A stretch of DNA of 33,014 bases from a virus (Duplodnaviria; Heunggongvirae; Uroviricota; Caudoviricetes): positions 1-33,014 of the IMG/VR virus record IMGVR_UViG_2713896896_000010; one strand, 5' to 3'. The notes under the pieces were generated by a model. The model searched no databases, was not told the DNA's origin, and worked only from the letters and a program-made list of their open reading frames with translations. How positions within the stretch are numbered: the stretch's first letter is position 1; the number at the start of each line of letters is the position of its first letter. The translations under genes were made by a program, and so were the position numbers. Positions 280 through 12,331 of this stretch are shown here, piece by piece.

Positions 280-2322
280 GTGTGGTTTGTAGTGCGGGAT
301 TGCCTGGGATTATCCGGTTTTCCATCGGCAGAAAAAAACATCCGGGCACGTCTGGATCGTCTTGCTGAAAATAACCCGGAATGGAAGCGCAAGCGTGAAG
401 GCACCAAAGCATTCGAGTATCACATCGACTGCCTGCCCGCTGAAGCGCAGAAAGTTTTACGTAAGCGCCTGACTCATCAGGTCCTGGAAGATGCGCAACT
501 GCCCGTCGTGGTTGAGCAGAAGGCAGTTAAAAACGTCGCCGTTCGCGATGAACTTGAAGTGATGGTCAAATGCCCGGAGCTGGCATTACGCGAAGTTCAG
601 GCACTGACTGACAAGCAAAAGGCCATCGCTGATGCGCGGATATTACTGGCTACCGAAGTGCATAAACTGCGTGAATATGCCGGAATGACCAGGAAGGCTG
701 CGTTAAAGCACATCGTTGATGGTGTGCGCATGGGGGCGTTACCTGACCGCATTATTGAGGCGGCAAATACCGCAAATGCACGTCAGGGAAAGCGAAGCGG
801 TGTCAGCACCGGCAGCCTGGACACCTGGTACTCCAGCTGGGTGATGGCGCGCGGTGACGCCAATCAGTTACTGGCGTTACTGGCTCCCGGTCATCATAAG
901 GGTACACCGTGGGAGCAGGTCTGGTGGTTGAGCGATTTCTTTATGTTCTATCGCTCATGGAAGCGCCCGACCGTTGAATATGCGTATCGCGAGTTTTCAG
1001 CCTGGTGGCATGAGAAGCACGCGAACGATGCGGGAATGCTGGCAGCACTGCCTTCAGTTCACGCAGTAAGACGGGTGTTAAGCAGCGTCCCGGTGATTGT
1101 TAAGGAGCGTTTCCGCTCCACCGGTTCAGCCTGGCGTTCGCTTAATCCCTTTGTGCGGCGCGACTGGACATCATTACCGGTTAATGCGGTATGGGTTGGG
1201 GATGGTCACTGTATGAAAATGACCGCGTTTAACCCCCTGACCGGTAATATTTTCCGGCCAGAAGTGACGCTGGTTATGGATGCGGGGCAACGCTTTGTTG
1301 TTGGCTGGTCGCTGTCCCTGTCGGAGAACGTGATAGCCGTTGCTGATGCGTTACGTTACGGCATGGCGCAGCACGGGATACCGCTGATTTATTACTCCGA
1401 TAACGGGGGCGGCGAAAAAAACCGGGTGCTTGATGCCGATATTACCGGGATTCTGCCCCGGCTGGGTGTGGAGCATCACACGGGGATACCCGGTAACCCG
1501 CAGGGGCGCGGGGTAATAGAACGGGCAAACAAAGGAATACCCAAAGACGTGGCACTGAGTTTCCAGACGTACTGCGCAAAGGATGCAGACAAGGAAACCG
1601 TAATGATACAGCAACGGATTATGCAGTCAGCCATTAAGGCCACCCACAAAGGGAAAGAGCTGACAAAACGGCAGGTTAAGGCAAGGGATGAAATCCCCAC
1701 CTTTGAGCAACTGATGGCAGCCATAGAGCTGGAGGTCAGACGCTATAACAACCGGCCACACAGCAGCCTTCCCCGCAAAGAGGATGGCGAGCATTACAGC
1801 CCGGCAGCGTATCGCCGGAAACTGATAAAAGAGCAGAATGTTGAAATTGATTTCCTGTCGCCGGAAGAACTGCATGAAATGTTCAGGCCGGAAGTGACGC
1901 GCAAAACATTTCGCGGGGAAATTCAGTTATTCAACAATATTTATTACTCGTATGAGCTGGCCGCAGAGCACGGGAATGAAGTCAGGGTCAGTTACGATAT
2001 TCATGATGCAAACAGTGTCATTGTCCGGCGGGCTGATGGCTCTTATATCTGTGATGCCATCTGGAACGGTAACAAGGTTGATGCCTTCGCTAAACCAGTT
2101 ATCGAACAAAAACTGGAGAAACGCGTCAGGGGCCGCATTGCACGGGCCACGCAGAAAATCGAAGAGGCTAAACGCGAGCTTACCCCGGCTATTACGCAGA
2201 AGCCTGACTTTAATCTGGGATATGGACTGGAACGCCCGGAGAAAAAGGAAAAAGAAGAACTTTATTTATTTGCATCTGAACGCGAACGCAATTTAAAGAA
2301 AAACGGCACAAACAACCGTTAA
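280..2322 (+). CDS. Mu-type DDE transposase (MuA-like)
   Basis: 680-aa ORF with a GTG start, positioned between ner-like and the MuB-like ATPase. Size and position match MuA (663 aa in Mu). DDE residues were not mapped rigorously. Confidence 0.85.
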   Translation: MWFVVRDCLGLSGFPSAEKNIRARLDRLAENNPEWKRKREGTKAFEYHIDCLPAEAQKVLRKRLTHQVLEDAQLPVVVEQKAVKNVAVRDELEVMVKCPELALREVQALTDKQKAIADARILLATEVHKLREYAGMTRKAALKHIVDGVRMGALPDRIIEAANTANARQGKRSGVSTGSLDTWYSSWVMARGDANQLLALLAPGHHKGTPWEQVWWLSDFFMFYRSWKRPTVEYAYREFSAWWHEKHANDAGMLAALPSVHAVRRVLSSVPVIVKERFRSTGSAWRSLNPFVRRDWTSLPVNAVWVGDGHCMKMTAFNPLTGNIFRPEVTLVMDAGQRFVVGWSLSLSENVIAVADALRYGMAQHGIPLIYYSDNGGGEKNRVLDADITGILPRLGVEHHTGIPGNPQGRGVIERANKGIPKDVALSFQTYCAKDADKETVMIQQRIMQSAIKATHKGKELTKRQVKARDEIPTFEQLMAAIELEVRRYNNRPHSSLPRKEDGEHYSPAAYRRKLIKEQNVEIDFLSPEELHEMFRPEVTRKTFRGEIQLFNNIYYSYELAAEHGNEVRVSYDIHDANSVIVRRADGSYICDAIWNGNKVDAFAKPVIEQKLEKRVRGRIARATQKIEEAKRELTPAITQKPDFNLGYGLERPEKKEKEELYLFASERERNLKKNGTNNR

Positions 2323-2340: not shown

Positions 2341-3234
2341 ATGAGTTTAATTACGCAATTAAATGACGTAATGGCCCGTCGCGGCTATACGCAGACCCAC
2401 GTCGCCCGTGCTATTGGTCGTAGTAGCGCCGTTATCAACCAGTATTTACAGGGTAAATATCAGGGCGATATGGCTGATATTGAAGAACGCATTTCTGCCT
2501 TTGTGACCCGTGAGCGGGAAAAAGAAAACAGCCGCCGTATTAAAGCGAAATTTGTTGCCACCGGTATGGCTGCCAAAGGACTGGAGGTGCTGGCCTATGC
2601 TCACCTGGAATGTGAAATCTGCGTACTGTATGGCGCGGCAGGTCTTGGCAAAACAATGATTCTGCGTGAATACGCCGCCAGAAACCGGGATGCGGTCCTG
2701 ATTGAGGCCGATCCGGGCTATACAGCCAGGACACTGCTTGAGGAGCTGTGCCGCCAGTTGGGGGTAAAAGTTCGCGGCAATATCCACGAACTGATTGATG
2801 CATGTGTGCGAGAACTGCGTGATTCCGGTCGCCTGCTGATGGTGGACGAGGCTGAACTGCTCCCCTATCGCGCACTGGAGGTTCTGCGCCGTCTGCATGA
2901 CAAAGCGGGTATCGGGATTGTCCTGGCGGGTATGCCACGCCTTCTGATTAACCTCAAGGGACGTCGCGGTGAGTTCGCCCAGTTATACAGCCGTGTGGCG
3001 CTGGCGCTTAACCTGGGCGATACGCTGTCGCAGGAAGATTTTAACCAGATAGCTACCGGGCTGATGCCGGAAGCAGCAGAACCGGAAATCAGCGAGGCGC
3101 TCTACGCACGCTCGCTGGGTAATGCCCGCCGCCTGTTCAAACTGGCGCGCGGTGTGTACCGGATTTGTGATATCAGCGATGCACCGGTCAGCGTGCAGGC
3201 CATTGATAAATTCGCAGAAATGTTAATTCACTGA
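2341..3234 (+). CDS. Transposition target-DNA activator ATPase (MuB-like, AAA+)
   Basis: 297-aa ORF with a Walker A motif (GAAGLGKT) and a Walker B-like motif (LLMVDEAE), directly downstream of the transposase. Confidence 0.85.
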   Translation: MSLITQLNDVMARRGYTQTHVARAIGRSSAVINQYLQGKYQGDMADIEERISAFVTREREKENSRRIKAKFVATGMAAKGLEVLAYAHLECEICVLYGAAGLGKTMILREYAARNRDAVLIEADPGYTARTLLEELCRQLGVKVRGNIHELIDACVRELRDSGRLLMVDEAELLPYRALEVLRRLHDKAGIGIVLAGMPRLLINLKGRRGEFAQLYSRVALALNLGDTLSQEDFNQIATGLMPEAAEPEISEALYARSLGNARRLFKLARGVYRICDISDAPVSVQAIDKFAEMLIH

Positions 3235-5581: not shown

Positions 5582-5809
5582 ATGGCTTTTAAACTTCTCA
5601 GTGTTACCGAAGCAATATACCAGCCGCCAGGAGAACGCCACGAATACAGGATGAATGACGGTAGCGCGGCGGTTGAGTTCCCCGGATATCCGGGGGCTTC
5701 CCGGTGGCGATTCTATGACAGTGCGGGACGCCGGATTATTAAAAGAACCGTGCACAACGCCATGAAAGCCGCCGTAGAGCGTCATAAAAGGAGGTTTAAC
5801 TGCAAATGA
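5582..5809 (+). CDS. Hypothetical small protein
   Basis: 75-aa ORF in a tightly packed run of small early ORFs. Confidence 0.5.
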   Translation: MAFKLLSVTEAIYQPPGERHEYRMNDGSAAVEFPGYPGASRWRFYDSAGRRIIKRTVHNAMKAAVERHKRRFNCK

Positions 5810-6030
5810 ATATTGAATTTTATGACTACGGGGTCACCGCAAAAATCATTGTTACCTGCTGGTTCTGGGAGTTCCGTCGCTATTGCCGGGTTGTGGATGC
5901 GGCGCTGTTTGTGGCCCCTGAAGTGCACCATCAGAGCGGTGGTGGTCTTTTAATGAGAACCGTCATCACCGGTAAAACGGTCCCGATGTTACGGGCGTTT
6001 AAAGTGGCAAAACAGGAGGCGGCGCAGTGA
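5806..6030 (+). CDS. Hypothetical small protein
   Basis: 74-aa ORF with an ATGA stop/start overlap with the upstream ORF. Confidence 0.5.
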   Translation: MNIEFYDYGVTAKIIVTCWFWEFRRYCRVVDAALFVAPEVHHQSGGGLLMRTVITGKTVPMLRAFKVAKQEAAQ

Positions 6031-6215
6031 ACCAGCAAACCAGAATAAGCGATAAGAGCCTGACCAGGCTGATTGCCGATGCTGACAGAATGCTTGGTAT
6101 GCGTTCTCCGGTTGTAGACAGCGAGTGGTGGACGCTCTTACGGCAGTCCCTGTTTGAACTTCAGGAGCGTCGCAGGGCTGATAGCGCAGAGCCAGTAGTA
6201 AATACAGGAGAATGA
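6027..6215 (+). CDS. Hypothetical small protein
   Basis: 62-aa ORF with an ATGA overlap with the upstream ORF. Confidence 0.5.
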   Translation: MNQQTRISDKSLTRLIADADRMLGMRSPVVDSEWWTLLRQSLFELQERRRADSAEPVVNTGE

Positions 6216-6219
6216 AACG

Positions 6220-6399
6220 ATGAAAAACCGTAAAGCAAAACTGCTTACAGCAAATCCCGGGCAGCTTATCCGCATCTCAAATCGACTTGTTGTTCGTTAT
6301 GCGCCTTCTGGCCTTGCCAGGTGGTTACCAACGCATTTTTACGGTGTCAGGCGACGTAGAAGTGCAGCCCAAAACCGCTGGAAAAATCACGGTATGTAA
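6220..6399 (+). CDS. Hypothetical small basic protein (59 aa, below the ORF-track cutoff)
   Basis: Read manually: ATG at 6220, stop at 6397-6399. Product MKNRKAKLL...RRRRSAAQNRWKNHGM is arginine/lysine-rich. It fills the gap between flanking genes. Confidence 0.3.
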   Translation: MKNRKAKLLTANPGQLIRISNRLVVRYAPSGLARWLPTHFYGVRRRRSAAQNRWKNHGM

Positions 6400-6411
6400 A
6401 GGAGGTACCAG

Positions 6412-6822
6412 GTGAAGAAAATGATTTTTGTGGCGGCATTGCTGACCATTACCCAACAGGCGCAGGCTTCAGCAGTTATTGTGGCATCTACCGCTGCGAC
6501 CACTGCTGCCGCAGCTGCTGCGAACTCTGCGAATATCGCAAACCAACAGGCACAGCGTGCTGCTAATGCATCAGCCAGTGCTCTCCCGGTTTCTGTTAAG
6601 GGCAGTAAGCAAAATCTGGGGTTCATAACATGCGGTAAGCGTTCTTCTGAAGCTGTAGGCTCACTGGGATGTACGGTATATGGCGATGGTGAGAGCAGAG
6701 AAATTCCATGGAAAACGTGGCCCGGATACGTTCTCGGCTCGAAGCTCCCGGCCAGCTATGAAGTAAACGCCGTATCGTTTGATCACTATAACAGCGTGGC
6801 AACTGTCTATTTTACATACTGA
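6412..6822 (+). CDS. Secreted protein with N-terminal signal peptide and Ala/Thr-rich linker
   Basis: GTG start 7 nt after an AGGAGG Shine-Dalgarno. Signal-like N-terminus MKKMIFVAALLTITQQAQA, then a low-complexity A/T/N/Q stretch and a Cys-containing C-terminal domain. Confidence 0.6.
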   Translation: MKKMIFVAALLTITQQAQASAVIVASTAATTAAAAAANSANIANQQAQRAANASASALPVSVKGSKQNLGFITCGKRSSEAVGSLGCTVYGDGESREIPWKTWPGYVLGSKLPASYEVNAVSFDHYNSVATVYFTY

Positions 6823-6921
6823 GGCTCGATATGGAATTTTCTGAATCACGGAGTAACAACTCGATGAAAACTATCACCGTAACGGTTGAAATCGACGTTC
6901 CTGATAACGCGGGGTGAAAAT

Positions 6922-7173
6922 ATGAGATGGGCTGACCTTTTTATTATCGCTCTGATTGTTACGGGGATTGCGCTTTGTGTGACAACTAACAAGGCTTCTG
7001 ATGATGCGGAAAATGGGCATTGCGTGGTAAAGAGAAATTTCATCAAAACCATTACGCATTGTGATGATGGAAGCGCCACCATGACCAGCGGGGATAAGTT
7101 TATTTATTGCTCTGCGGGGAAAAATGGCACGCCATCCTGTCATGAAGTGACGCTCGGTGATGGTGATAAATAA
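6922..7173 (+). CDS. Small membrane-anchored or secreted Cys-rich protein
   Basis: Internal ATG of track ORF 6886..7173. Hydrophobic N-terminus LFIIALIVTGIALCVTT followed by a region with at least five cysteines. AT-rich. Confidence 0.45.
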   Translation: MRWADLFIIALIVTGIALCVTTNKASDDAENGHCVVKRNFIKTITHCDDGSATMTSGDKFIYCSAGKNGTPSCHEVTLGDGDK

Positions 7174-7203
7174 TTCATCATATTGAGCAGATAATAATCA
7201 AGC

Positions 7204-7231
7204 GCAGACCAAAACATATGTTTTGGTCTGC
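7204..7231. repeat. 28-bp perfect palindrome GCAGACCAAAACAT|ATGTTTTGGTCTGC
   Basis: Read directly. The 10-mer TGTTTTGGTC from the right half recurs as a direct repeat at 7241..7250. Lies in the gap upstream of the 7254 ORF. Confidence 0.8.
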
Positions 7232-7253
7232 CAAAAGTAGTGTTTTGGTCATT

Positions 7254-7532
7254 ATGAAGATTGAACAAATCGGAATGGCAGCTTTCAGGCAACAGGCTGA
7301 AAGCGGTGGCGTGGATGAGTTCGTCGTGCAGCGGTTCGGTGGTGTGTATCACCTCTTCGCTGTGAATCGCCGCGCCGGGGTGTCCTATTTTCTACAGGAA
7401 CGCCGTGGCGATTACAAGACGTGGTTGTCTCTTGACCGTGCCGCTGCGTTCTTGTCAGGGATTGGCGTTTCACGTTTTACCGTGCGTTTTGAGGATAACA
7501 AACATGCTGAAAAAGATGATCGGGGCCATTAA
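7254..7532 (+). CDS. Hypothetical protein upstream of gemA-like
   Basis: Internal ATG of track ORF 7218..7532. The 7218 ATG sits at the palindrome centre, so 7254 is preferred. Overlaps the gemA-like start. Confidence 0.4.
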   Translation: MKIEQIGMAAFRQQAESGGVDEFVVQRFGGVYHLFAVNRRAGVSYFLQERRGDYKTWLSLDRAAAFLSGIGVSRFTVRFEDNKHAEKDDRGH

Positions 7533-7902
7533 AGCTGGTCAGGCGTATCTGGGGTGGGATGATGCCCTTTATCGCCAGACGCTGGCCCGCCTGACCGGTA
7601 AAACCAGCACCACACGCTGCAATCTCGATGAACTGCGCATCATCCGGGAATACATGCACGAACAGGGATTCCCGCGCAAGGCACCCGCCGGTAAAGGTCG
7701 CCGCCCTCGTGTTGCAATGAGCAGAAAATCAGTATTATCCAAAATTGAAGCGTTGCTGGCTGATGCAGGTCGTTCCTGGGCGTATGCAGAAGGACTGGCA
7801 TCTCACATGTATAAGCAACATGTGATCGAATGGCTGACGGATGAACAGCTTTTTGGAGTGATGGTGGCGCTGGTTAAAGATTCAAGAAGGAGAAATCAAT
7901 GA
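7504..7902 (+). CDS. gemA: GemA-like regulatory protein (Mu gp16 family)
   Basis: Internal ATG of track ORF 7405..7902. N-terminal pattern KKMIGAIKAGQAYLGWDDALYRQTLARLTGKTS matches the GemA/DUF1018 signature as I recall it. Position upstream of mor-like matches Mu. Confidence 0.65.
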   Translation: MLKKMIGAIKAGQAYLGWDDALYRQTLARLTGKTSTTRCNLDELRIIREYMHEQGFPRKAPAGKGRRPRVAMSRKSVLSKIEALLADAGRSWAYAEGLASHMYKQHVIEWLTDEQLFGVMVALVKDSRRRNQ

Positions 7903-8375
7903 TGAAAAAATGGTTGTTTTGTTTAGTAGGGGTTATTTTCTCTTGTTCTGTGCTGGCACAGACAGAGGAACAGGCGCAAAAGGAACTGAAACGTTATCAG
8001 GATATGAAGCCATTGGCTGAACAGATGCTTCGGGAAAGTGGAAAACTTTATTACGCTATGCCAGAAGCTGCATCGCAGTATCAGCAGGGAAATATTGAAG
8101 AGTGGAAGAATATCAAAAAAGGACTAAAACAACTGGATGAACAGGCCAGTAAACTGGGGGACGACCCGCTTGATCCTGTGTATGGTTCCTGCATAAAAAT
8201 GAAAAACCAGCTACAGGATTACTGGTCTAACGTTATCAGGGATGACAGGCAGTTTCTGGAGCGTTCAAGAAATCAGTTTAAAGAATATCGTATGGATTGT
8301 TTTGATTCGTTTGTTTTTGGTAAAGAGCAAATAGAATCAAGAAAAGGCCTGGTTATTCTAGACCTGACTAAATAA
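7899..8375 (+). CDS. AT-rich cargo gene (moron): secreted or lipoprotein-like, helical
   Basis: 158 aa with signal-like N-terminus MMKKWLFCLVGVIFSCSVLA. Clearly AT-richer than flanking phage genes. Followed by a strong intrinsic terminator. Confidence 0.6.
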   Translation: MMKKWLFCLVGVIFSCSVLAQTEEQAQKELKRYQDMKPLAEQMLRESGKLYYAMPEAASQYQQGNIEEWKNIKKGLKQLDEQASKLGDDPLDPVYGSCIKMKNQLQDYWSNVIRDDRQFLERSRNQFKEYRMDCFDSFVFGKEQIESRKGLVILDLTK

Positions 8376-8385
8376 GACTTAGTTT

Positions 8386-8412
8386 AGCCCCTGCCATGCA
8401 GGGGCTTTTTTT
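8386..8412 (+). terminator. Rho-independent terminator
   Basis: Stem AGCCCCTGC / GCAGGGGCT with a 3-nt loop, followed by a T7 run. Read directly. Confidence 0.7.
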
Positions 8413-8418
8413 GTGGTC

Positions 8419-8446
8419 TGTACAGGCGATCATGTATGGCTATAAT
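8419..8446 (+). promoter_or_regulatory. Candidate sigma70 promoter for the mor-like gene
   Basis: Perfect TATAAT at 8441..8446. A weak -35 (TGTACA) lies 16 bp upstream. GGAG Shine-Dalgarno before the ATG at 8476. Confidence 0.3.
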
Positions 8447-8475: not shown

Positions 8476-8943
8476 ATGCAGACCTTCAGTGAAACAGATC
8501 TTCGCGATGCGCAGGCACTGCTGCCCGATTCCGTACAGCAACTGATTAGCGTGATTGGCTTCCCCGCTCTGACCCGGTTGATTCGTTCTTTTGGTGGCGT
8601 GACGTTAAGCGGTAAAACCGGCGCACACGCCGAACGCACCGGCGGTGTCCATGCCCTGTTACATGACGTGCTGACCGAAGACGAAATCAACAAACTGATC
8701 CGCTTTCTTGGCGGTGCACCGTTTTACATTCCCCGTTGTGATCATGCTTTACGTGCCCTGCGTAACACCCGTTTTATGGCTGATTTACAGCAGCATGTTA
8801 AAGGCGGTTGCTCACACCGACAGGCGCTGGCACTGCTTTGTCCCCGTTACGGGATTTCAGACCGGTATGCATGGCAACTGATACACCGACGACAAAAACA
8901 GACTTCGCTGAAAAGCCCCACCCAGGTGGGGCTTTTTGATTAA
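8476..8943 (+). CDS. mor: Mor/C-family transcriptional activator
   Basis: 155 aa. The C-terminal helix-turn-helix-like segment ...RYGISDRYAWQLI is typical of the Mor/C family. Position after gemA-like matches Mu mor. Confidence 0.65.
   Translation: MQTFSETDLRDAQALLPDSVQQLISVIGFPALTRLIRSFGGVTLSGKTGAHAERTGGVHALLHDVLTEDEINKLIRFLGGAPFYIPRCDHALRALRNTRFMADLQQHVKGGCSHRQALALLCPRYGISDRYAWQLIHRRQKQTSLKSPTQVGLFD
8914..8937 (+). terminator. Rho-independent terminator embedded in the 3' end of the mor-like gene
   Basis: GC-rich stem GCCCCACC / GGTGGGGC followed by TTTTT. Overlaps the last codons of the ORF. Confidence 0.55.
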
Positions 8944-10109: not shown

Positions 10110-10638
10110 CATTTTTGATGAAGTCCTGGGCAAAGAAGGCGGTTACGTCAATCACCCGGATGATAAGGGCGGTCCGACCAAATGGGGCATTACGGAAAAA
10201 GTTGCCCGCGCCCACGGATACCGTGGTGATATGCGCGATTTAACCCGCCAGCAGGCGCTGGACATCCTTGAAGCCGATTACTGGTATGGCCCGCGATTTG
10301 ACCAGGTCGCCGCATTATCCCCTGATATTGCCGCAGAGTTGTGTGATACCGGTGTGAATATGGGGCCATCCGCGGCGTCCAGAATGCTTCAGCGCTGGCT
10401 GAATGTGTTCAATTTGCGCGGGAAGCTGTACCCGGATATGGATGCAGACGGACGCATCGGGCCTCGCACCATCAGTGCATTGCGCACCTTCCTGAATAAT
10501 CGCGGTCAGGACGGTGAACGGGTGATGCTGACGGCCCTGAACTGCACGCAGGGGGACCGCTATCTGGAACTGGCAGAGAAACGCGAGGCTAACGAATCGT
10601 TTGTTTATGGCTGGCTGAAGGGGCGCGTGGCGGTATGA
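10093..10638 (+). CDS. Endolysin, glycoside hydrolase family 108-like with a C-terminal peptidoglycan-binding region
   Basis: N-terminal EGGYVNHPDDKGGPTKWGIT is the GH108 signature as I recall it. 181 aa. Confidence 0.75.
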   Translation: MKSKDDIFDEVLGKEGGYVNHPDDKGGPTKWGITEKVARAHGYRGDMRDLTRQQALDILEADYWYGPRFDQVAALSPDIAAELCDTGVNMGPSAASRMLQRWLNVFNLRGKLYPDMDADGRIGPRTISALRTFLNNRGQDGERVMLTALNCTQGDRYLELAEKREANESFVYGWLKGRVAV

Positions 10639-10817
10639 CGCGTCAGCACTGGACCCACAGAACGCCACGTAAAGCCGCGCGCTGTGTTCTGGCCCTGTTT
10701 CTGGTGATGTTGCTTCCGGTGGGATGCACGGACATTAACAGAGCGGGCCAGTTGTTTGACGCGGCGGCGCAGGTCTGTCGGATTATTGACGGCATCCGGC
10801 AGTGTTCACAGAACTGA
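10635..10817 (+). CDS. Small lipoprotein (lipobox LPVGC)
   Basis: 60 aa with a signal peptide and lipobox-like LLPVGC, then a 29-aa mature region with two Cys. ATGA overlap with the endolysin stop. Confidence 0.45.
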   Translation: MTRQHWTHRTPRKAARCVLALFLVMLLPVGCTDINRAGQLFDAAAQVCRIIDGIRQCSQN

Positions 10818-11590: not shown

Positions 11591-12331
11591 ATGCAAAAAC
11601 AGATTATTGGTAACGCAACGTTGTATTGCGGTGATGTTCTTGATGTGCTGCCGGCGTTATCCGAACGTTTTGATGCCGTCATTACCGACCCGCCTTACAG
11701 CAGTGGTGGCATACACAAATCAGACCGCAGCATAGCCCCTTCGGACAAGTATGTCGGCCACACCCAGTATGCCGAGTTCACCGGCGATAACCGCGACCAG
11801 CGCAGCTGGGCGTTCTGGTGTTCCATGTGGATTTCTCATGCATTGCACAGGCTGAATCCCGGCGGTTATTTCATGGTGTTCAGTGACTGGCGACAACTAC
11901 CGGCACTTACCGATGCATTTCAGGCCGGTGGTGTGCTGTGGCGTGGTCTGGTTGTCTGGGATAAAACGCAGGCTTCCCGTGCGCCACACACCGGCTATTT
12001 CCGGCATCAGGCCGAGTATGTGGTCTGGGGCAGCAACGGAAAACTCGACAAATGCCCGCACGGTGGCCCGTTCCCGGGTGTGATTACGCAGCGCGTTGTC
12101 CCGTCCGAAAAACTGCACATGACCGCAAAGCCGGTTCAGCTGATGGCCGAGCTGGTTAAACCGCTGGCACCGGATGCGCACGTTCTCGATCCGTTTATGG
12201 GAAGCGGCACTACCGCCATCCCTGTACTTGCCCGTGGCGGACGGTTTACCGGCATTGAAATGACTAACCAGTATTTTGATATCGCCTGCGCACGTATCGA
12301 AAAAGCGCAGGCAGAAGCAGTGCAGGTGTGA
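11591..12331 (+). CDS. DNA N6-adenine/N4-cytosine methyltransferase (DPPY motif)
   Basis: Catalytic motif FDAVITDPPY near the N-terminus and an AdoMet-binding motif FMGSGTT near the C-terminus. No adjacent restriction endonuclease gene. Confidence 0.8.
   Translation: MQKQIIGNATLYCGDVLDVLPALSERFDAVITDPPYSSGGIHKSDRSIAPSDKYVGHTQYAEFTGDNRDQRSWAFWCSMWISHALHRLNPGGYFMVFSDWRQLPALTDAFQAGGVLWRGLVVWDKTQASRAPHTGYFRHQAEYVVWGSNGKLDKCPHGGPFPGVITQRVVPSEKLHMTAKPVQLMAELVKPLAPDAHVLDPFMGSGTTAIPVLARGGRFTGIEMTNQYFDIACARIEKAQAEAVQV

What the first reader, a model, noticed from the sequence alone, without database searches (positions are those of the whole stretch)
6412..7173. Pair of envelope-targeted proteins inside the early operon
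The 6412..6822 product has a clear signal peptide, then an Ala/Thr/Asn/Gln-rich low-complexity linker and a Cys-containing domain. The 6922..7173 product has an N-terminal membrane anchor and a Cys-rich extracytoplasmic tail. Exported proteins made early by a transposable phage are candidates for superinfection exclusion or receptor masking. I do not recognise either protein.
Basis: partly seen in the sequence, partly recalled or inferred. Interest (0 to 1): 0.45.

Follow-up and report, generated by a model that had tools for sequence, protein, structure and literature searches.

The report
Two independent exported phage cargo proteins
Two small genes in the early operon of a Mu-like E. coli prophage very probably encode proteins sent to the periplasm, but they are separate, independently mobile accessory genes of unknown function (possibly blocking rival phages), not a conserved pair.

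Summary
6412-6822 (gene A, 136 aa) and 6922-7173 (gene B, 83 aa) are annotated genes in the early region of a Mu-like E. coli prophage. A has a classical signal peptide (MKK / MIFVAALLTIT / QQAQA|S), an Ala/Thr-rich linker and a ~70-aa domain with two invariant Cys. B has one N-terminal hydrophobic segment and a tail with four invariant Cys. All 41 A relatives examined keep a signal peptide. Distant B relatives carry canonical cleavable ones.

The "pair" reading does not hold. A+B+, A+B- and A-B+ relatives were all found. A is in 64 of 5426 complete E. coli genomes, B in 7. A is a ~450-bp single-gene cassette flanked by an 8-bp direct repeat. It also occurs in lambdoid prophages, ~90-kb phage-plasmids, virulent phage Av-05 and ~45-kb lytic phages.

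Neither protein matches Pfam, NCBIfam or PADLOC, and PHROGs gives only unknown-function families. A confident AlphaFold model of A's domain (pLDDT 89) has no significant structural neighbour.

Function is untested. My best guess (about 0.35) is that they are autonomous periplasmic binders made early in lytic growth, most likely for superinfection exclusion. Interest is modest.

The parts
6396..6843 (+). Gene-A cassette: the unit shared between phage types. It holds the Shine-Dalgarno site, gene A, an 8-nt spacer and the first ~4 codons of the gene that follows A in lambdoid and Av-05 contexts.
   Evidence: Megablast to virulent phage Av-05 covers window 6399-6841 at 81.5% and nothing else in 5800-8400. 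Multi-context alignments show homology starting ~15 nt before the GTG and ending just after ATGGAATTTTC.
6385..6392 (+). Left copy of the 8-bp direct repeat AATCACGG flanking the A cassette.
   Evidence: Read from the sequence. The A-less relative L016 has a single fused copy at this junction.
6844..6851 (+). Right copy of the direct repeat AATCACGG.
6399..6405 (+). Shine-Dalgarno AAGGAGG of gene A. In lambdoid contexts the same bases encode the ...KGA... C-terminus of the upstream Ea22-like gene.
6412..6822 (+). Gene A, 136 aa, GTG start. An exported protein of family phrog_8805 (unknown function).
   Evidence: E 1e-81; dN/dS 0.11-0.37.
6412..6468 (+). A residues 1-19: Sec-type signal peptide MKKMIFVAALLTITQQAQA, with predicted cleavage AQA|S.
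   Evidence: Hydropathy and the -3/-1 rule. The same architecture is present in all 41 relatives examined.
6469..6606 (+). A residues 20-65: hydrophobic start (SAVIVAS), then an Ala/Thr/Asn/Gln-rich low-complexity linker. Its length varies, and it is replaced by a short non-Ala-rich spacer in the ~45-kb lytic-phage relatives.
   Evidence: pLDDT is about 40-57 across this segment in the full-length model.
6607..6819 (+). A residues 66-136: conserved globular domain (four strands, one helix, two strands) with invariant Cys74 (6631-6633) and Cys87 (6670-6672). The protein ends in ...VYFTY.
   Evidence: AlphaFold2 on a 42-sequence alignment gave pLDDT 89.3 and pTM 0.76. Conservation is shown. There is no significant structural neighbour.
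6831..6917 (+). 28-aa remnant ORF (MEFSESRSNNSMKTITVTVEIDVPDNAG), with an internal ATG at 6864. It starts 8 nt after A's stop and ends 4 nt before B's ATG. It is an in-frame 132-nt deletion derivative of the small ORF that is intact in STEC313 and Salmonella relatives (annotated there as 61 aa from the internal ATG).
6922..7173 (+). Gene B, 83 aa, ATG start. A small envelope protein of family phrog_8391 (unknown function). It is AT-richer (GC ~0.43) than its neighbours (~0.53).
   Evidence: (E 7e-45).
6937..6987 (+). B residues 6-22: the single hydrophobic segment LFIIALIVTGIALCVTT. It is either a signal-anchor or a long signal-peptide core.
   Evidence: R2 precedes it and an acidic flank follows, which favours N-in/C-out. 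Distant homologues have cleavable signal peptides here.
6988..7170 (+). B residues 23-83: periplasmic tail with four invariant Cys (34, 47, 63, 73), which implies two disulfides.
7204..7231 (.). Perfect 12-bp hairpin GCAGACCAAAAC-ATAT-GTTTTGGTCTGC just downstream of B. It is conserved whether or not B is present, so it marks the right edge of the variable slot.
   Evidence: dG -22 kcal/mol, z -4.66.

Best explanation
Genes A and B are two unrelated, independently acquired accessory (cargo) genes. They sit in a variable slot of the early, Mu 'semi-essential'-type region of a Mu-like prophage.

Shown:
- Each encodes a small protein with a Sec-type N-terminal export signal and conserved cysteine pairs.
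- A is a self-contained ~450-bp cassette that has moved between Mu-like, lambdoid, phage-plasmid and virulent phage genomes.
- Neither gene requires the other.

Inferred:
- Both are transcribed from the early promoter within minutes of induction or infection, not in the repressed lysogen.
- Both are exported by Sec and oxidised by DsbA. A would be released as a soluble periplasmic protein consisting of a flexible Ala-rich tether plus a disulfide-stapled alpha/beta domain. B would be a membrane-tethered or released 55-60-residue two-disulfide domain.
- Each acts alone by binding an envelope component.

Most likely function, a guess by analogy: superinfection exclusion during lytic growth. That means blocking a receptor from its periplasmic face, or blocking the periplasmic step of DNA entry by competing phages, and limiting loss of progeny on debris. 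T5 Llp, T1 Cor and T4 Sp/Imm work this way.

Confidence is about 0.85 for the anatomy, topology and independence, and about 0.3 for the exclusion function. The figure given (0.35) is for the whole statement.
For: Real genes at the stated coordinates within a Mu-like early region.

Export:
- A has a tripartite signal peptide, kept in 41 of 41 relatives.
- Only A, B and one further early ORF in this region have such N-termini.
- Distant B homologues have canonical cleavable signal peptides.
- The Cys are invariant: 2 in A over 42 sequences, 4 in B over 9 sequences. That fits an oxidising compartment.

Selection: A dN/dS is 0.11-0.37. B is 0.28 against its distant copy.

A folded binding-type domain without catalytic signature: AlphaFold2 pLDDT 89.3. 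The invariant residues are Gly and Cys, and the near-invariant ones are mostly Gly/Pro, aromatic or hydrophobic.

Autonomy and mobility:
- Cassette boundaries are mapped, with a flanking 8-bp repeat and a single-copy empty site.
- A+B-, A-B+ and A+B+ genomes all exist.
- A is in 63 non-mobilizable 85-110-kb plasmids, in lambdoid prophages, in virulent Av-05 and in ~45-kb lytic phages.
- B-like genes occur in lytic Klebsiella phages.

Early, not lysogenic, expression:
- No sigma-70-like promoter precedes either gene. No + strand terminator-like site lies between gene A and the strong terminator at 8386-8406; the only + strand sites upstream (5926-5946) are weak and lie inside ORF 5806-6030. Counts do not exceed those in shuffled sequence.
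- In lambdoid contexts A's GTG overlaps the upstream stop codon.

Precedents:
[quoted passage not shown] The abstract of bioRxiv 10.64898/2026.03.26.714494 says it is made shortly after infection.
- One A subfamily on phage-plasmids carries a canonical lipobox, LSA|C.
Against: - Neither protein has sequence or profile similarity to any known exclusion protein, any PADLOC model or any annotated PHROG.
- The window's copies are not lipoproteins. They lie ~20 kb from the tail-fibre genes, whereas Llp and Cor sit next to the receptor-binding gene.
- A occurs in phages with very different tails and presumably different receptors. That argues against masking one specific receptor.
- Early-only expression is inferred from synteny with Mu and from simple motif scans, not measured.
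- No dedicated signal-peptide or topology predictor could be run.
- B shows 12-16 non-synonymous versus 2 synonymous differences between close copies. This could mean relaxed constraint rather than an arms race.
- No phenotype data exist in the searched literature.
Confidence: 0.35

Rival explanations
1. Host-envelope takeover. A and/or B bind a host periplasmic or membrane component, such as an envelope-stress sensor, a peptidoglycan or division enzyme, or a protease. This would reprogramme envelope physiology in favour of phage replication rather than exclude other phages.
Confidence: 0.2
2. Counter-defence. The proteins neutralise a host or prophage-encoded envelope-located anti-phage system, for example an exclusion protein of a resident prophage or a membrane-acting abortive-infection effector.
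For: They are accessory, patchily distributed, horizontally mobile, early-expressed small proteins also carried by virulent phages. That distribution is typical of anti-defence genes (own knowledge). B has an excess of non-synonymous changes among close relatives.
Against: Most characterised anti-defence proteins act in the cytoplasm (own knowledge). No candidate periplasmic target is known, and there is no homology to any described inhibitor. The B dN/dS signal rests on 2 synonymous changes and is not significant.
Confidence: 0.1
3. Lysogenic-conversion factors. The proteins are expressed from the prophage and benefit the bacterium, for example through serum resistance, adhesion or colicin and phage resistance in the lysogen, like lambda Bor and Lom.
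For: They are exported, and some sources name A relatives 'prophage exported protein'. B and the third exported ORF are AT-rich, like acquired cargo.
Against: No promoter-like site lies upstream of A or B and no terminator lies around them. A is translationally embedded in operons. Homologues occur in strictly virulent phages, where lysogenic conversion is meaningless. By the Mu paradigm the early operon is repressed in lysogens (own knowledge).
Confidence: 0.08
4. Lysis-timing control. B, a single-pass protein with a periplasmic domain, would act like the T4 RI antiholin, sensing periplasmic signals to delay lysis.
For: B's architecture of an N-terminal membrane segment plus a small periplasmic domain resembles RI (own knowledge).
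Against: B lies in the early operon 2.2 kb upstream of the holin genes, separated from them by GemA, a strong terminator and Mor. Its membrane segment is strongly hydrophobic, not the weakly hydrophobic releasable type. Most relatives with identical lysis cassettes lack B. There is no homology.
Confidence: 0.05
5. Decaying or functionless hitch-hiking ORFs.
For: B is often deleted. The ORF between A and B is truncated in the window. B's close copies differ mostly by non-synonymous changes.
Against: A shows clear purifying selection, and its frame and signal peptide stay intact across about five phage types. B's four Cys and its export signal are kept down to 26-43% identity. B's dN/dS is 0.28 against its distant copy.
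Confidence: 0.05

Closest known systems
T5 Llp and T1/phi80 Cor superinfection-exclusion lipoproteins
   Same: Small proteins (about 60-140 aa) that are exported and act from the periplasmic side, and that are carried by lytic as well as temperate phages. Llp is made early after infection. One A subfamily on phage-plasmids even has a lipobox. Llp biology is taken from PMC9586334 and the abstract of bioRxiv 10.64898/2026.03.26.714494.
   Different: There is no sequence or profile similarity. The window's A and B have no lipobox. They are not adjacent to a receptor-binding protein gene. A is found in phages with unrelated tail types, so a single receptor target such as FhuA is unlikely.
T4 Sp (Spackle) and Imm
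   Same: Early-expressed small envelope proteins of a phage that block DNA entry of superinfecting phages. Sp is a soluble periplasmic protein with a signal peptide and Imm is a membrane protein (own knowledge). This parallels soluble A and anchored B.
   Different: There is no homology. A's domain is predicted to be mostly beta-strand. Sp and Imm act on T-even phages specifically. A and B are not co-inherited.
DUF1471 / YhcN-BhsA-SrfN periplasmic domains (RcsF-like fold)
Early-region exclusion proteins of Pseudomonas Mu-like phages (D3112 Tip, DMS3 Aqs1)
   Same: Small accessory proteins encoded in the early operon of transposable phages that block superinfection (own knowledge).
   Different: Those proteins are cytoplasmic and inhibit type IV pilus assembly. 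A and B are exported and unrelated in sequence.
Classical lambdoid morons (Bor, Lom)
   Same: Envelope-targeted cargo genes inserted between conserved phage genes. B and the ORF at 7899-8375 show the low GC typical of morons.
   Different: A and B have no promoter or terminator of their own. A is translationally coupled into operons. They are probably not expressed in the lysogen.

Membership tests
Sec (type I) signal-peptide proteins | Positively charged n-region, 7-15-residue hydrophobic core, small residues at -3/-1, and no further membrane segment. | tested here: met
   Gene A has MKK / MIFVAALLTIT / AQA|S and no later hydrophobic window >= 1.6. The pattern is kept in 41 of 41 relatives. 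This is rule-based only; SignalP was not available.
Sec (type I) signal-peptide proteins | The same features, applied to gene B. | tested here: inconclusive
   An n-region (R2) and a 15-17-residue core are present, but there is no good -3/-1 site. Candidates are GIA|L and CVT|T. Distant homologues have clear sites, AMA|AD and ARA|DD. It may be an anchor or a cleaved peptide. Either way the tail is outside the cytoplasm.
Bacterial lipoproteins (as Llp/Cor are) | Lipobox [LVI][ASTVI][GAS]C at the end of the signal peptide. | tested here: not met
   The window's A has no Cys before residue 74. B has IAL-C19, with Leu at -1. A lipobox, LSA|C, exists only in the phage-plasmid subfamily of A.
Llp/Cor superinfection-exclusion family | Sequence homology to Llp or Cor. 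| tested here: not met
   No Pfam, NCBIfam or PADLOC match at E <= 0.1. The only PHROG matches are the unknown-function families 8805, 8391 and 11462.
Llp/Cor superinfection-exclusion family | Gene adjacent to and downstream of the receptor-binding protein gene (PMC9586334). | tested here: not met
   A and B lie between MuB and GemA in the early region. Tail genes start beyond ~21 kb. In other phages A lies in Ea22-type early regions.
Llp/Cor superinfection-exclusion family | Blocks infection through a defined outer-membrane receptor. | not testable with these tools
   This needs plating and adsorption assays.
T4 Sp / Imm | Sequence homology. | tested here: not met
   Structural searches of A's domain give no phage hit other than its own family.
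DUF1471 (YhcN/BhsA/SrfN) | Match to the family profile. | tested here: not met
   Pfam scan of 42 members at E <= 10 gives no PF07338. hhalign against a three-sequence DUF1471 profile gives probability 0.3%. That profile is small, so the power of this test is limited.
DUF1471 (YhcN/BhsA/SrfN) | Same fold: strand order 2-4-3-1 with a long helix between strands 2 and 3 (PMC4092069). | tested here: inconclusive
Moron (autonomous cargo transcription unit) | Own promoter and terminator flanking the gene. | tested here: not met
   No promoter-like site lies upstream of A or B. The hairpin after B lacks a T-tract on the + strand. The scans are consensus-based only.
PHROG 8805 (A) and PHROG 8391 (B) | Full-length profile match. 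| tested here: met
   E 1e-81 over 1-136 of 136, and E 7e-45 over 1-83 of 85. Both families are annotated 'unknown function'.
Conserved functional gene pair / operon module | Co-occurrence of A and B across genomes. | tested here: not met
   A is in 64 and B in 7 of 5426 E. coli genomes. A+B- loci are L003, L005, L006, L029-31, L040 and L049. A-B+ loci are L016 and L019. 37 of 59 IMG/VR A loci have a different downstream neighbour.

The most novel reading that the evidence does not exclude
Gene A founds a new family of autonomous, horizontally mobile periplasmic phage effectors. Its disulfide-stapled fold has no significant neighbour in the structure libraries searched. Because it is shared by myo- and siphoviruses, temperate and virulent phages and phage-plasmids, it would target a receptor-independent, conserved periplasmic step. 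Candidates are the Ton or Tol machinery or the peptidoglycan-crossing step of DNA entry. Its conserved hydrophobic mature N-terminus (A/S-V-I/V-V/I) on a flexible tether might act as a strand-donating hook resembling a TonB box. B would be a second, unrelated two-disulfide mini-domain effector.
Probability: 0.12. Interest if true: 0.6.

Novelty: new member of a known kind. Interest (0 to 1): 0.3.

Why it matters
If either protein excludes other phages from the periplasm, it would add a non-lipoprotein, receptor-gene-unlinked type to the few exclusion mechanisms that are understood. That is relevant to phage-therapy cocktail design and to reading the many unannotated genes in phage early regions.

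Gene A is a convenient test case:
- it is a single 411-bp gene;
- its domain has a confident predicted structure;
- it is naturally present or absent in otherwise near-identical prophages.

As it stands, this is an ordinary example of uncharacterised exported phage cargo. The main concrete result is negative: there is no functional pair.

Tried and rejected
1. Family assignment. Pfam, NCBIfam and PADLOC gave nothing. PHROGs gave only unknown-function families.

2. Full-length AlphaFold2 of A. The model had pLDDT 53.6 and was unusable. Re-running the C-terminal domain on a deeper alignment solved this.

3. Structure searches with the good model.
- Foldseek against PDB gave a best E of 0.22.
- BFVD returned only A's own family.
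- AFDB50 was not installed.

5. TonB-box-like mature N-terminus of A (SAVIV against the ETVIV consensus recalled from memory). It is kept only as a low-probability idea, because some family members start AYTPPP instead.

6. Lipoprotein reading of B (invariant Cys19 among close relatives). Rejected: Leu sits at -1, and the Cys is absent from distant homologues.

7. B structure.

8. Deep search for B. Only 4 hits came from 1.84 billion representative proteins, and one of those is a spurious repeat protein. None was found in 185,579 species-representative genomes.

9. Literature searches by name and by accession found nothing on these proteins.

10. Positive selection on B. The ratio is 1.7-2.3 but rests on 2 synonymous changes, so it is not significant.
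Full report
WHAT THE WINDOW IS. The 2.6 kb around the finding is 99.9% identical to chromosomal prophages of two E. coli strains. The annotation of one of them shows a Mu-type transposable phage. In order it has a repressor and ner-like HTH genes, a Mu transposase (window 280-2322) and a MuB-like AAA ATPase (2341-3234). A run of small + strand genes follows, then GemA (about 7504-7902), a Mor-family activator (8476-8943), holins, an endolysin and head genes. I call them A and B. They lie between MuB and GemA, the position of Mu's semi-essential early region (synteny; own knowledge of Mu).

- A starts at GTG 6412, 6 nt after a strong AAGGAGG.
- Its N-terminus is MKK / MIFVAALLTIT / QQAQA|SA: a charged n-region, an 11-residue hydrophobic core and an AxA site.
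- An Ala/Thr/Asn/Gln-rich stretch follows (26 Ala in 136 residues), then a domain with Cys74 and Cys87.
- B starts at ATG 6922. It has R2, then LFIIALIVTGIALCV (mean hydropathy 2.24 over 19 residues), an acidic flank and a tail with Cys34, 47, 63 and 73.
- I had no SignalP or TMHMM, so I used two controls. First, a simple N-terminal filter passes only 5 of about 50 plus-strand ORFs in the window: A, B, a third early ORF (7899-8375), a spanin-like lipoprotein after the endolysin and one over-extended ORF. Second, the export signal is conserved across evolution. All 41 A relatives examined, down to about 41% identity, have a K/R n-region, a hydrophobic core and a small-x-small (mostly AxA) site.
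- Distant B relatives have textbook cleavable signal peptides, for example MTSKLTALIVLFIIPAAMA|AD in Klebsiella phage Snook and ...GIARA|DD in P0066. They keep all four Cys.
- A is under purifying selection, with dN/dS 0.11-0.37 among prophage copies. B scores 0.28 against its most distant DNA copy.
- The two Cys of A are invariant in 42 sequences. Conserved Cys pairs behind an export signal imply periplasmic disulfides. That is an inference.
- Whether B's N-terminus stays as an anchor or is cleaved is unresolved.

THEY ARE NOT A PAIR.
- A is found in 64 of 5426 complete E. coli genomes (47 chromosomal places, 19 on plasmids). The B region is fully present in only 7, all chromosomal.
- Protein searches give 57 clusters for A, or 69 with a domain profile, and 5 for B.
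- An exhaustive HMM search of 1.84 billion representative proteins finds only 4 hits for B, one of them spurious.
- Neither family is found in species-representative genomes, apart from one A hit on a short MAG contig.
- Closely related Mu-like prophages carry A without B (CFS3292, 54214, 2824). Their alignment shows a clean deletion running from inside a small intervening ORF to just before a conserved hairpin.
- IMG/VR loci L016 and L019 carry B without A. So A+B+, A+B- and A-B+ genomes were all observed, and neither gene has a match in Mu-type phages of the phage collection.
- Where both are present they are separated by a third small gene. It is a 61-aa ORF in STEC313 and Salmonella, a different 39-aa hydrophobic ORF in L012, and in this window a 28-aa in-frame deletion remnant at 6831-6917 that ends 4 nt before B's ATG.

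A IS A MOBILE SINGLE-GENE CASSETTE.
- Megablast of 5800-8400 against 50,697 phage records hits only the virulent Vequintavirinae phage Av-05. The match is 81.5% identical and covers only window 6399-6841, which is gene A.
- In E. coli, A also sits on ~93-102-kb plasmids that carry P1-type genes (Ref, Icd-like, Rha), and in lambdoid prophages next to replication and Ea22-like genes.
- PLSDB holds 63 plasmids with an A-family gene. All are 85-110 kb and non-mobilizable, which suggests phage-plasmids.
- Of 59 IMG/VR loci with A, 37 show a downstream gene beginning MKFSKF... 8 nt after A's stop, and nearly all of these also have an Ea22-like C-terminal gene just upstream. A further 8 are Mu-like and 14 are divergent copies in other contexts.
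- Alignments across contexts place the shared segment from about 15 nt before the GTG to about 11 nt into the downstream gene. The upstream end includes the Shine-Dalgarno site, which in lambdoid phages is the ...KGADK* end of the upstream gene.
- This explains the ATGGAATTTTC (MEFS...) that follows A by 8 nt in the window. It is the stub of the lambdoid neighbour.
- In the Mu-like backbone the cassette is flanked by the direct repeat AATCACGG (6385-6392 and 6844-6851). The A-less relative L016 has one fused copy.
- A gene that travels alone between five kinds of phage presumably works alone. That is an inference.
- More distant A relatives (about 41-53% identical in the domain) lack the Ala-rich linker. 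They occur in ~45-kb lytic phages of Escherichia and Klebsiella.
- B-like genes (30-45% identity) occur in lytic Klebsiella phages.

WHAT THE PROTEINS LOOK LIKE.
- Neither matches Pfam, NCBIfam or PADLOC. PHROGs places them in phrog_8805 (E 1e-81) and phrog_8391 (E 7e-45), both of unknown function.
- The full-length AlphaFold2 model of A was poor, with pLDDT 53.6.
- The C-terminal 81 residues on a deeper 42-sequence alignment gave a confident model with pLDDT 89.3 and pTM 0.76. It has four strands, one helix and two strands.
- The conserved positions are Gly, Pro, Cys and aromatic or hydrophobic residues, with no obvious catalytic set. This suggests a binding module.
Its tail reads as short strands stapled by two disulfides.

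EXPRESSION (inferred).
- No sigma-70-like promoter precedes A or B. No + strand terminator-like site lies between gene A and the strong terminator at 8386-8406. The only + strand sites upstream, at 5926-5946, are weak, sit inside ORF 5806-6030, and the count does not exceed that in shuffled sequence.
- In lambdoid phages A's GTG overlaps the upstream stop codon.
- So A and B should be made from the early promoter after induction or infection and not in the repressed lysogen. Together with their presence in virulent phages, this argues against lysogenic conversion.

MOST LIKELY MECHANISM. Each protein is exported by Sec, disulfide-bonded and acts on its own in the periplasm by binding an envelope component early in lytic growth.
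- The best-precedented role for such proteins is superinfection exclusion. [quoted passage not shown] T1 Cor and T4 Sp/Imm are similar (own knowledge). Mu-like Pseudomonas phages encode exclusion proteins in their early operons (own knowledge).
- I give this about 0.3. The underlying anatomy, topology and independence get about 0.85.
- Against it: there is no homology to any known exclusion protein. The window's copies have no lipobox. There is no linkage to receptor-binding genes. A occurs in phages with unrelated tails, which fits a general periplasmic target better than one receptor.
- Rivals are envelope takeover or stress modulation (0.2), counter-defence (0.1), lysogenic conversion (0.08), lysis timing (0.05) and junk (0.05).

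NOVELTY AND VERDICT. Both families are already catalogued as unknown-function phage protein families. The kind of thing, small exported phage cargo, is familiar.
- What is new here: A and B are independent. A is a precisely bounded cassette shared by temperate and virulent phages. A's domain is confidently predicted yet has no significant structural neighbour.
- Interest is modest at 0.3. It would rise if a phenotype were found.

Noticed in passing
window 7899-8375: A third exported protein lies at the end of the early operon. It is 158 aa with N-terminus MMKKWLFCLVGVIFSCSVLA|QT, which is either a signal peptide or a lipobox (IFS|C). GC is only 0.40. It occupies a variable slot between GemA and Mor: relatives carry an unrelated 112-aa ORF there, or nothing. 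It has no Pfam, PHROG, NCBIfam or PADLOC match.
   Followed up: partly
window 7204-7231 (and 7242-7250): A perfect 12-bp hairpin, GCAGACCAAAAC-ATAT-GTTTTGGTCTGC (dG -22 kcal/mol, z -4.66). It is conserved in all relatives with or without gene B. A third GTTTTGGTC copy abuts the ATG of the next gene (7254). It has no T-tract on the + strand, so it is probably not a terminator. It could be an RNA stability or translation-control element, or a protein-binding site.
   Followed up: partly
window 6385-6392 and 6844-6851: An 8-bp direct repeat, AATCACGG, brackets the gene-A cassette. An A-less relative (L016) has a single fused copy. This indicates gain or loss by short-homology recombination.
   Followed up: yes
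window 6831-6917: A 28-aa ORF lies between A and B. It is an in-frame 132-nt deletion derivative of the small ORF that is intact in STEC313 and Salmonella prophages (annotated there as 61 aa from the internal ATG). Its first codons (MEFS) derive from the gene that follows A in lambdoid phages and Av-05. Its stop lies 4 nt before B's ATG, so translational coupling to B is possible.
   Followed up: yes
window 8386-8406 and 8419-8446: A strong intrinsic terminator (9-bp GC-rich stem plus a T-run) is followed directly by the best promoter-like site of the region, just upstream of the Mor-family gene. So this Mor/C-type activator appears to lie outside the early transcript, unlike mor in Mu (own knowledge of Mu).
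   Followed up: no
window 10635-10817: A 60-aa ORF directly after the endolysin gene has a lipobox (LLPVG|C). It looks like an outer-membrane spanin-type lipoprotein.
   Followed up: no
proteins P0052, P0069, P0075 and relatives (A subfamily on ~90-kb plasmids): This subfamily is 64-67% identical to the window's A over the C-terminal 81 residues. Its best-represented cluster, P0075, is seen on 540 contigs. It carries a canonical lipobox in its signal peptide (MAKFQRNIIFLAMLSA|C), so it may be a lipoprotein version of A. One variant (P0115) has Ser instead of Cys.
   Followed up: partly
gene B, window 6922-7173 versus L013/L015 (Salmonella) and L004: Close copies of B differ by 12-16 non-synonymous but only 2 synonymous substitutions (dN/dS 1.7-2.3). 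The changes lie mostly in the membrane segment and linker. The numbers are too small to be significant.
   Followed up: partly
window 11591-12331: A DNA N6/N4 methyltransferase gene lies between the DUF1804 gene and the large terminase gene of this Mu-like prophage.
   Followed up: no
locus L049 (IMG/VR 2740892012_000006): A Mu-like prophage in which the C-terminal part of an Ea22-like gene lies directly upstream of A, as in lambdoid phages. It looks like a larger imported segment and a possible intermediate of the transfer between phage types.
   Followed up: no
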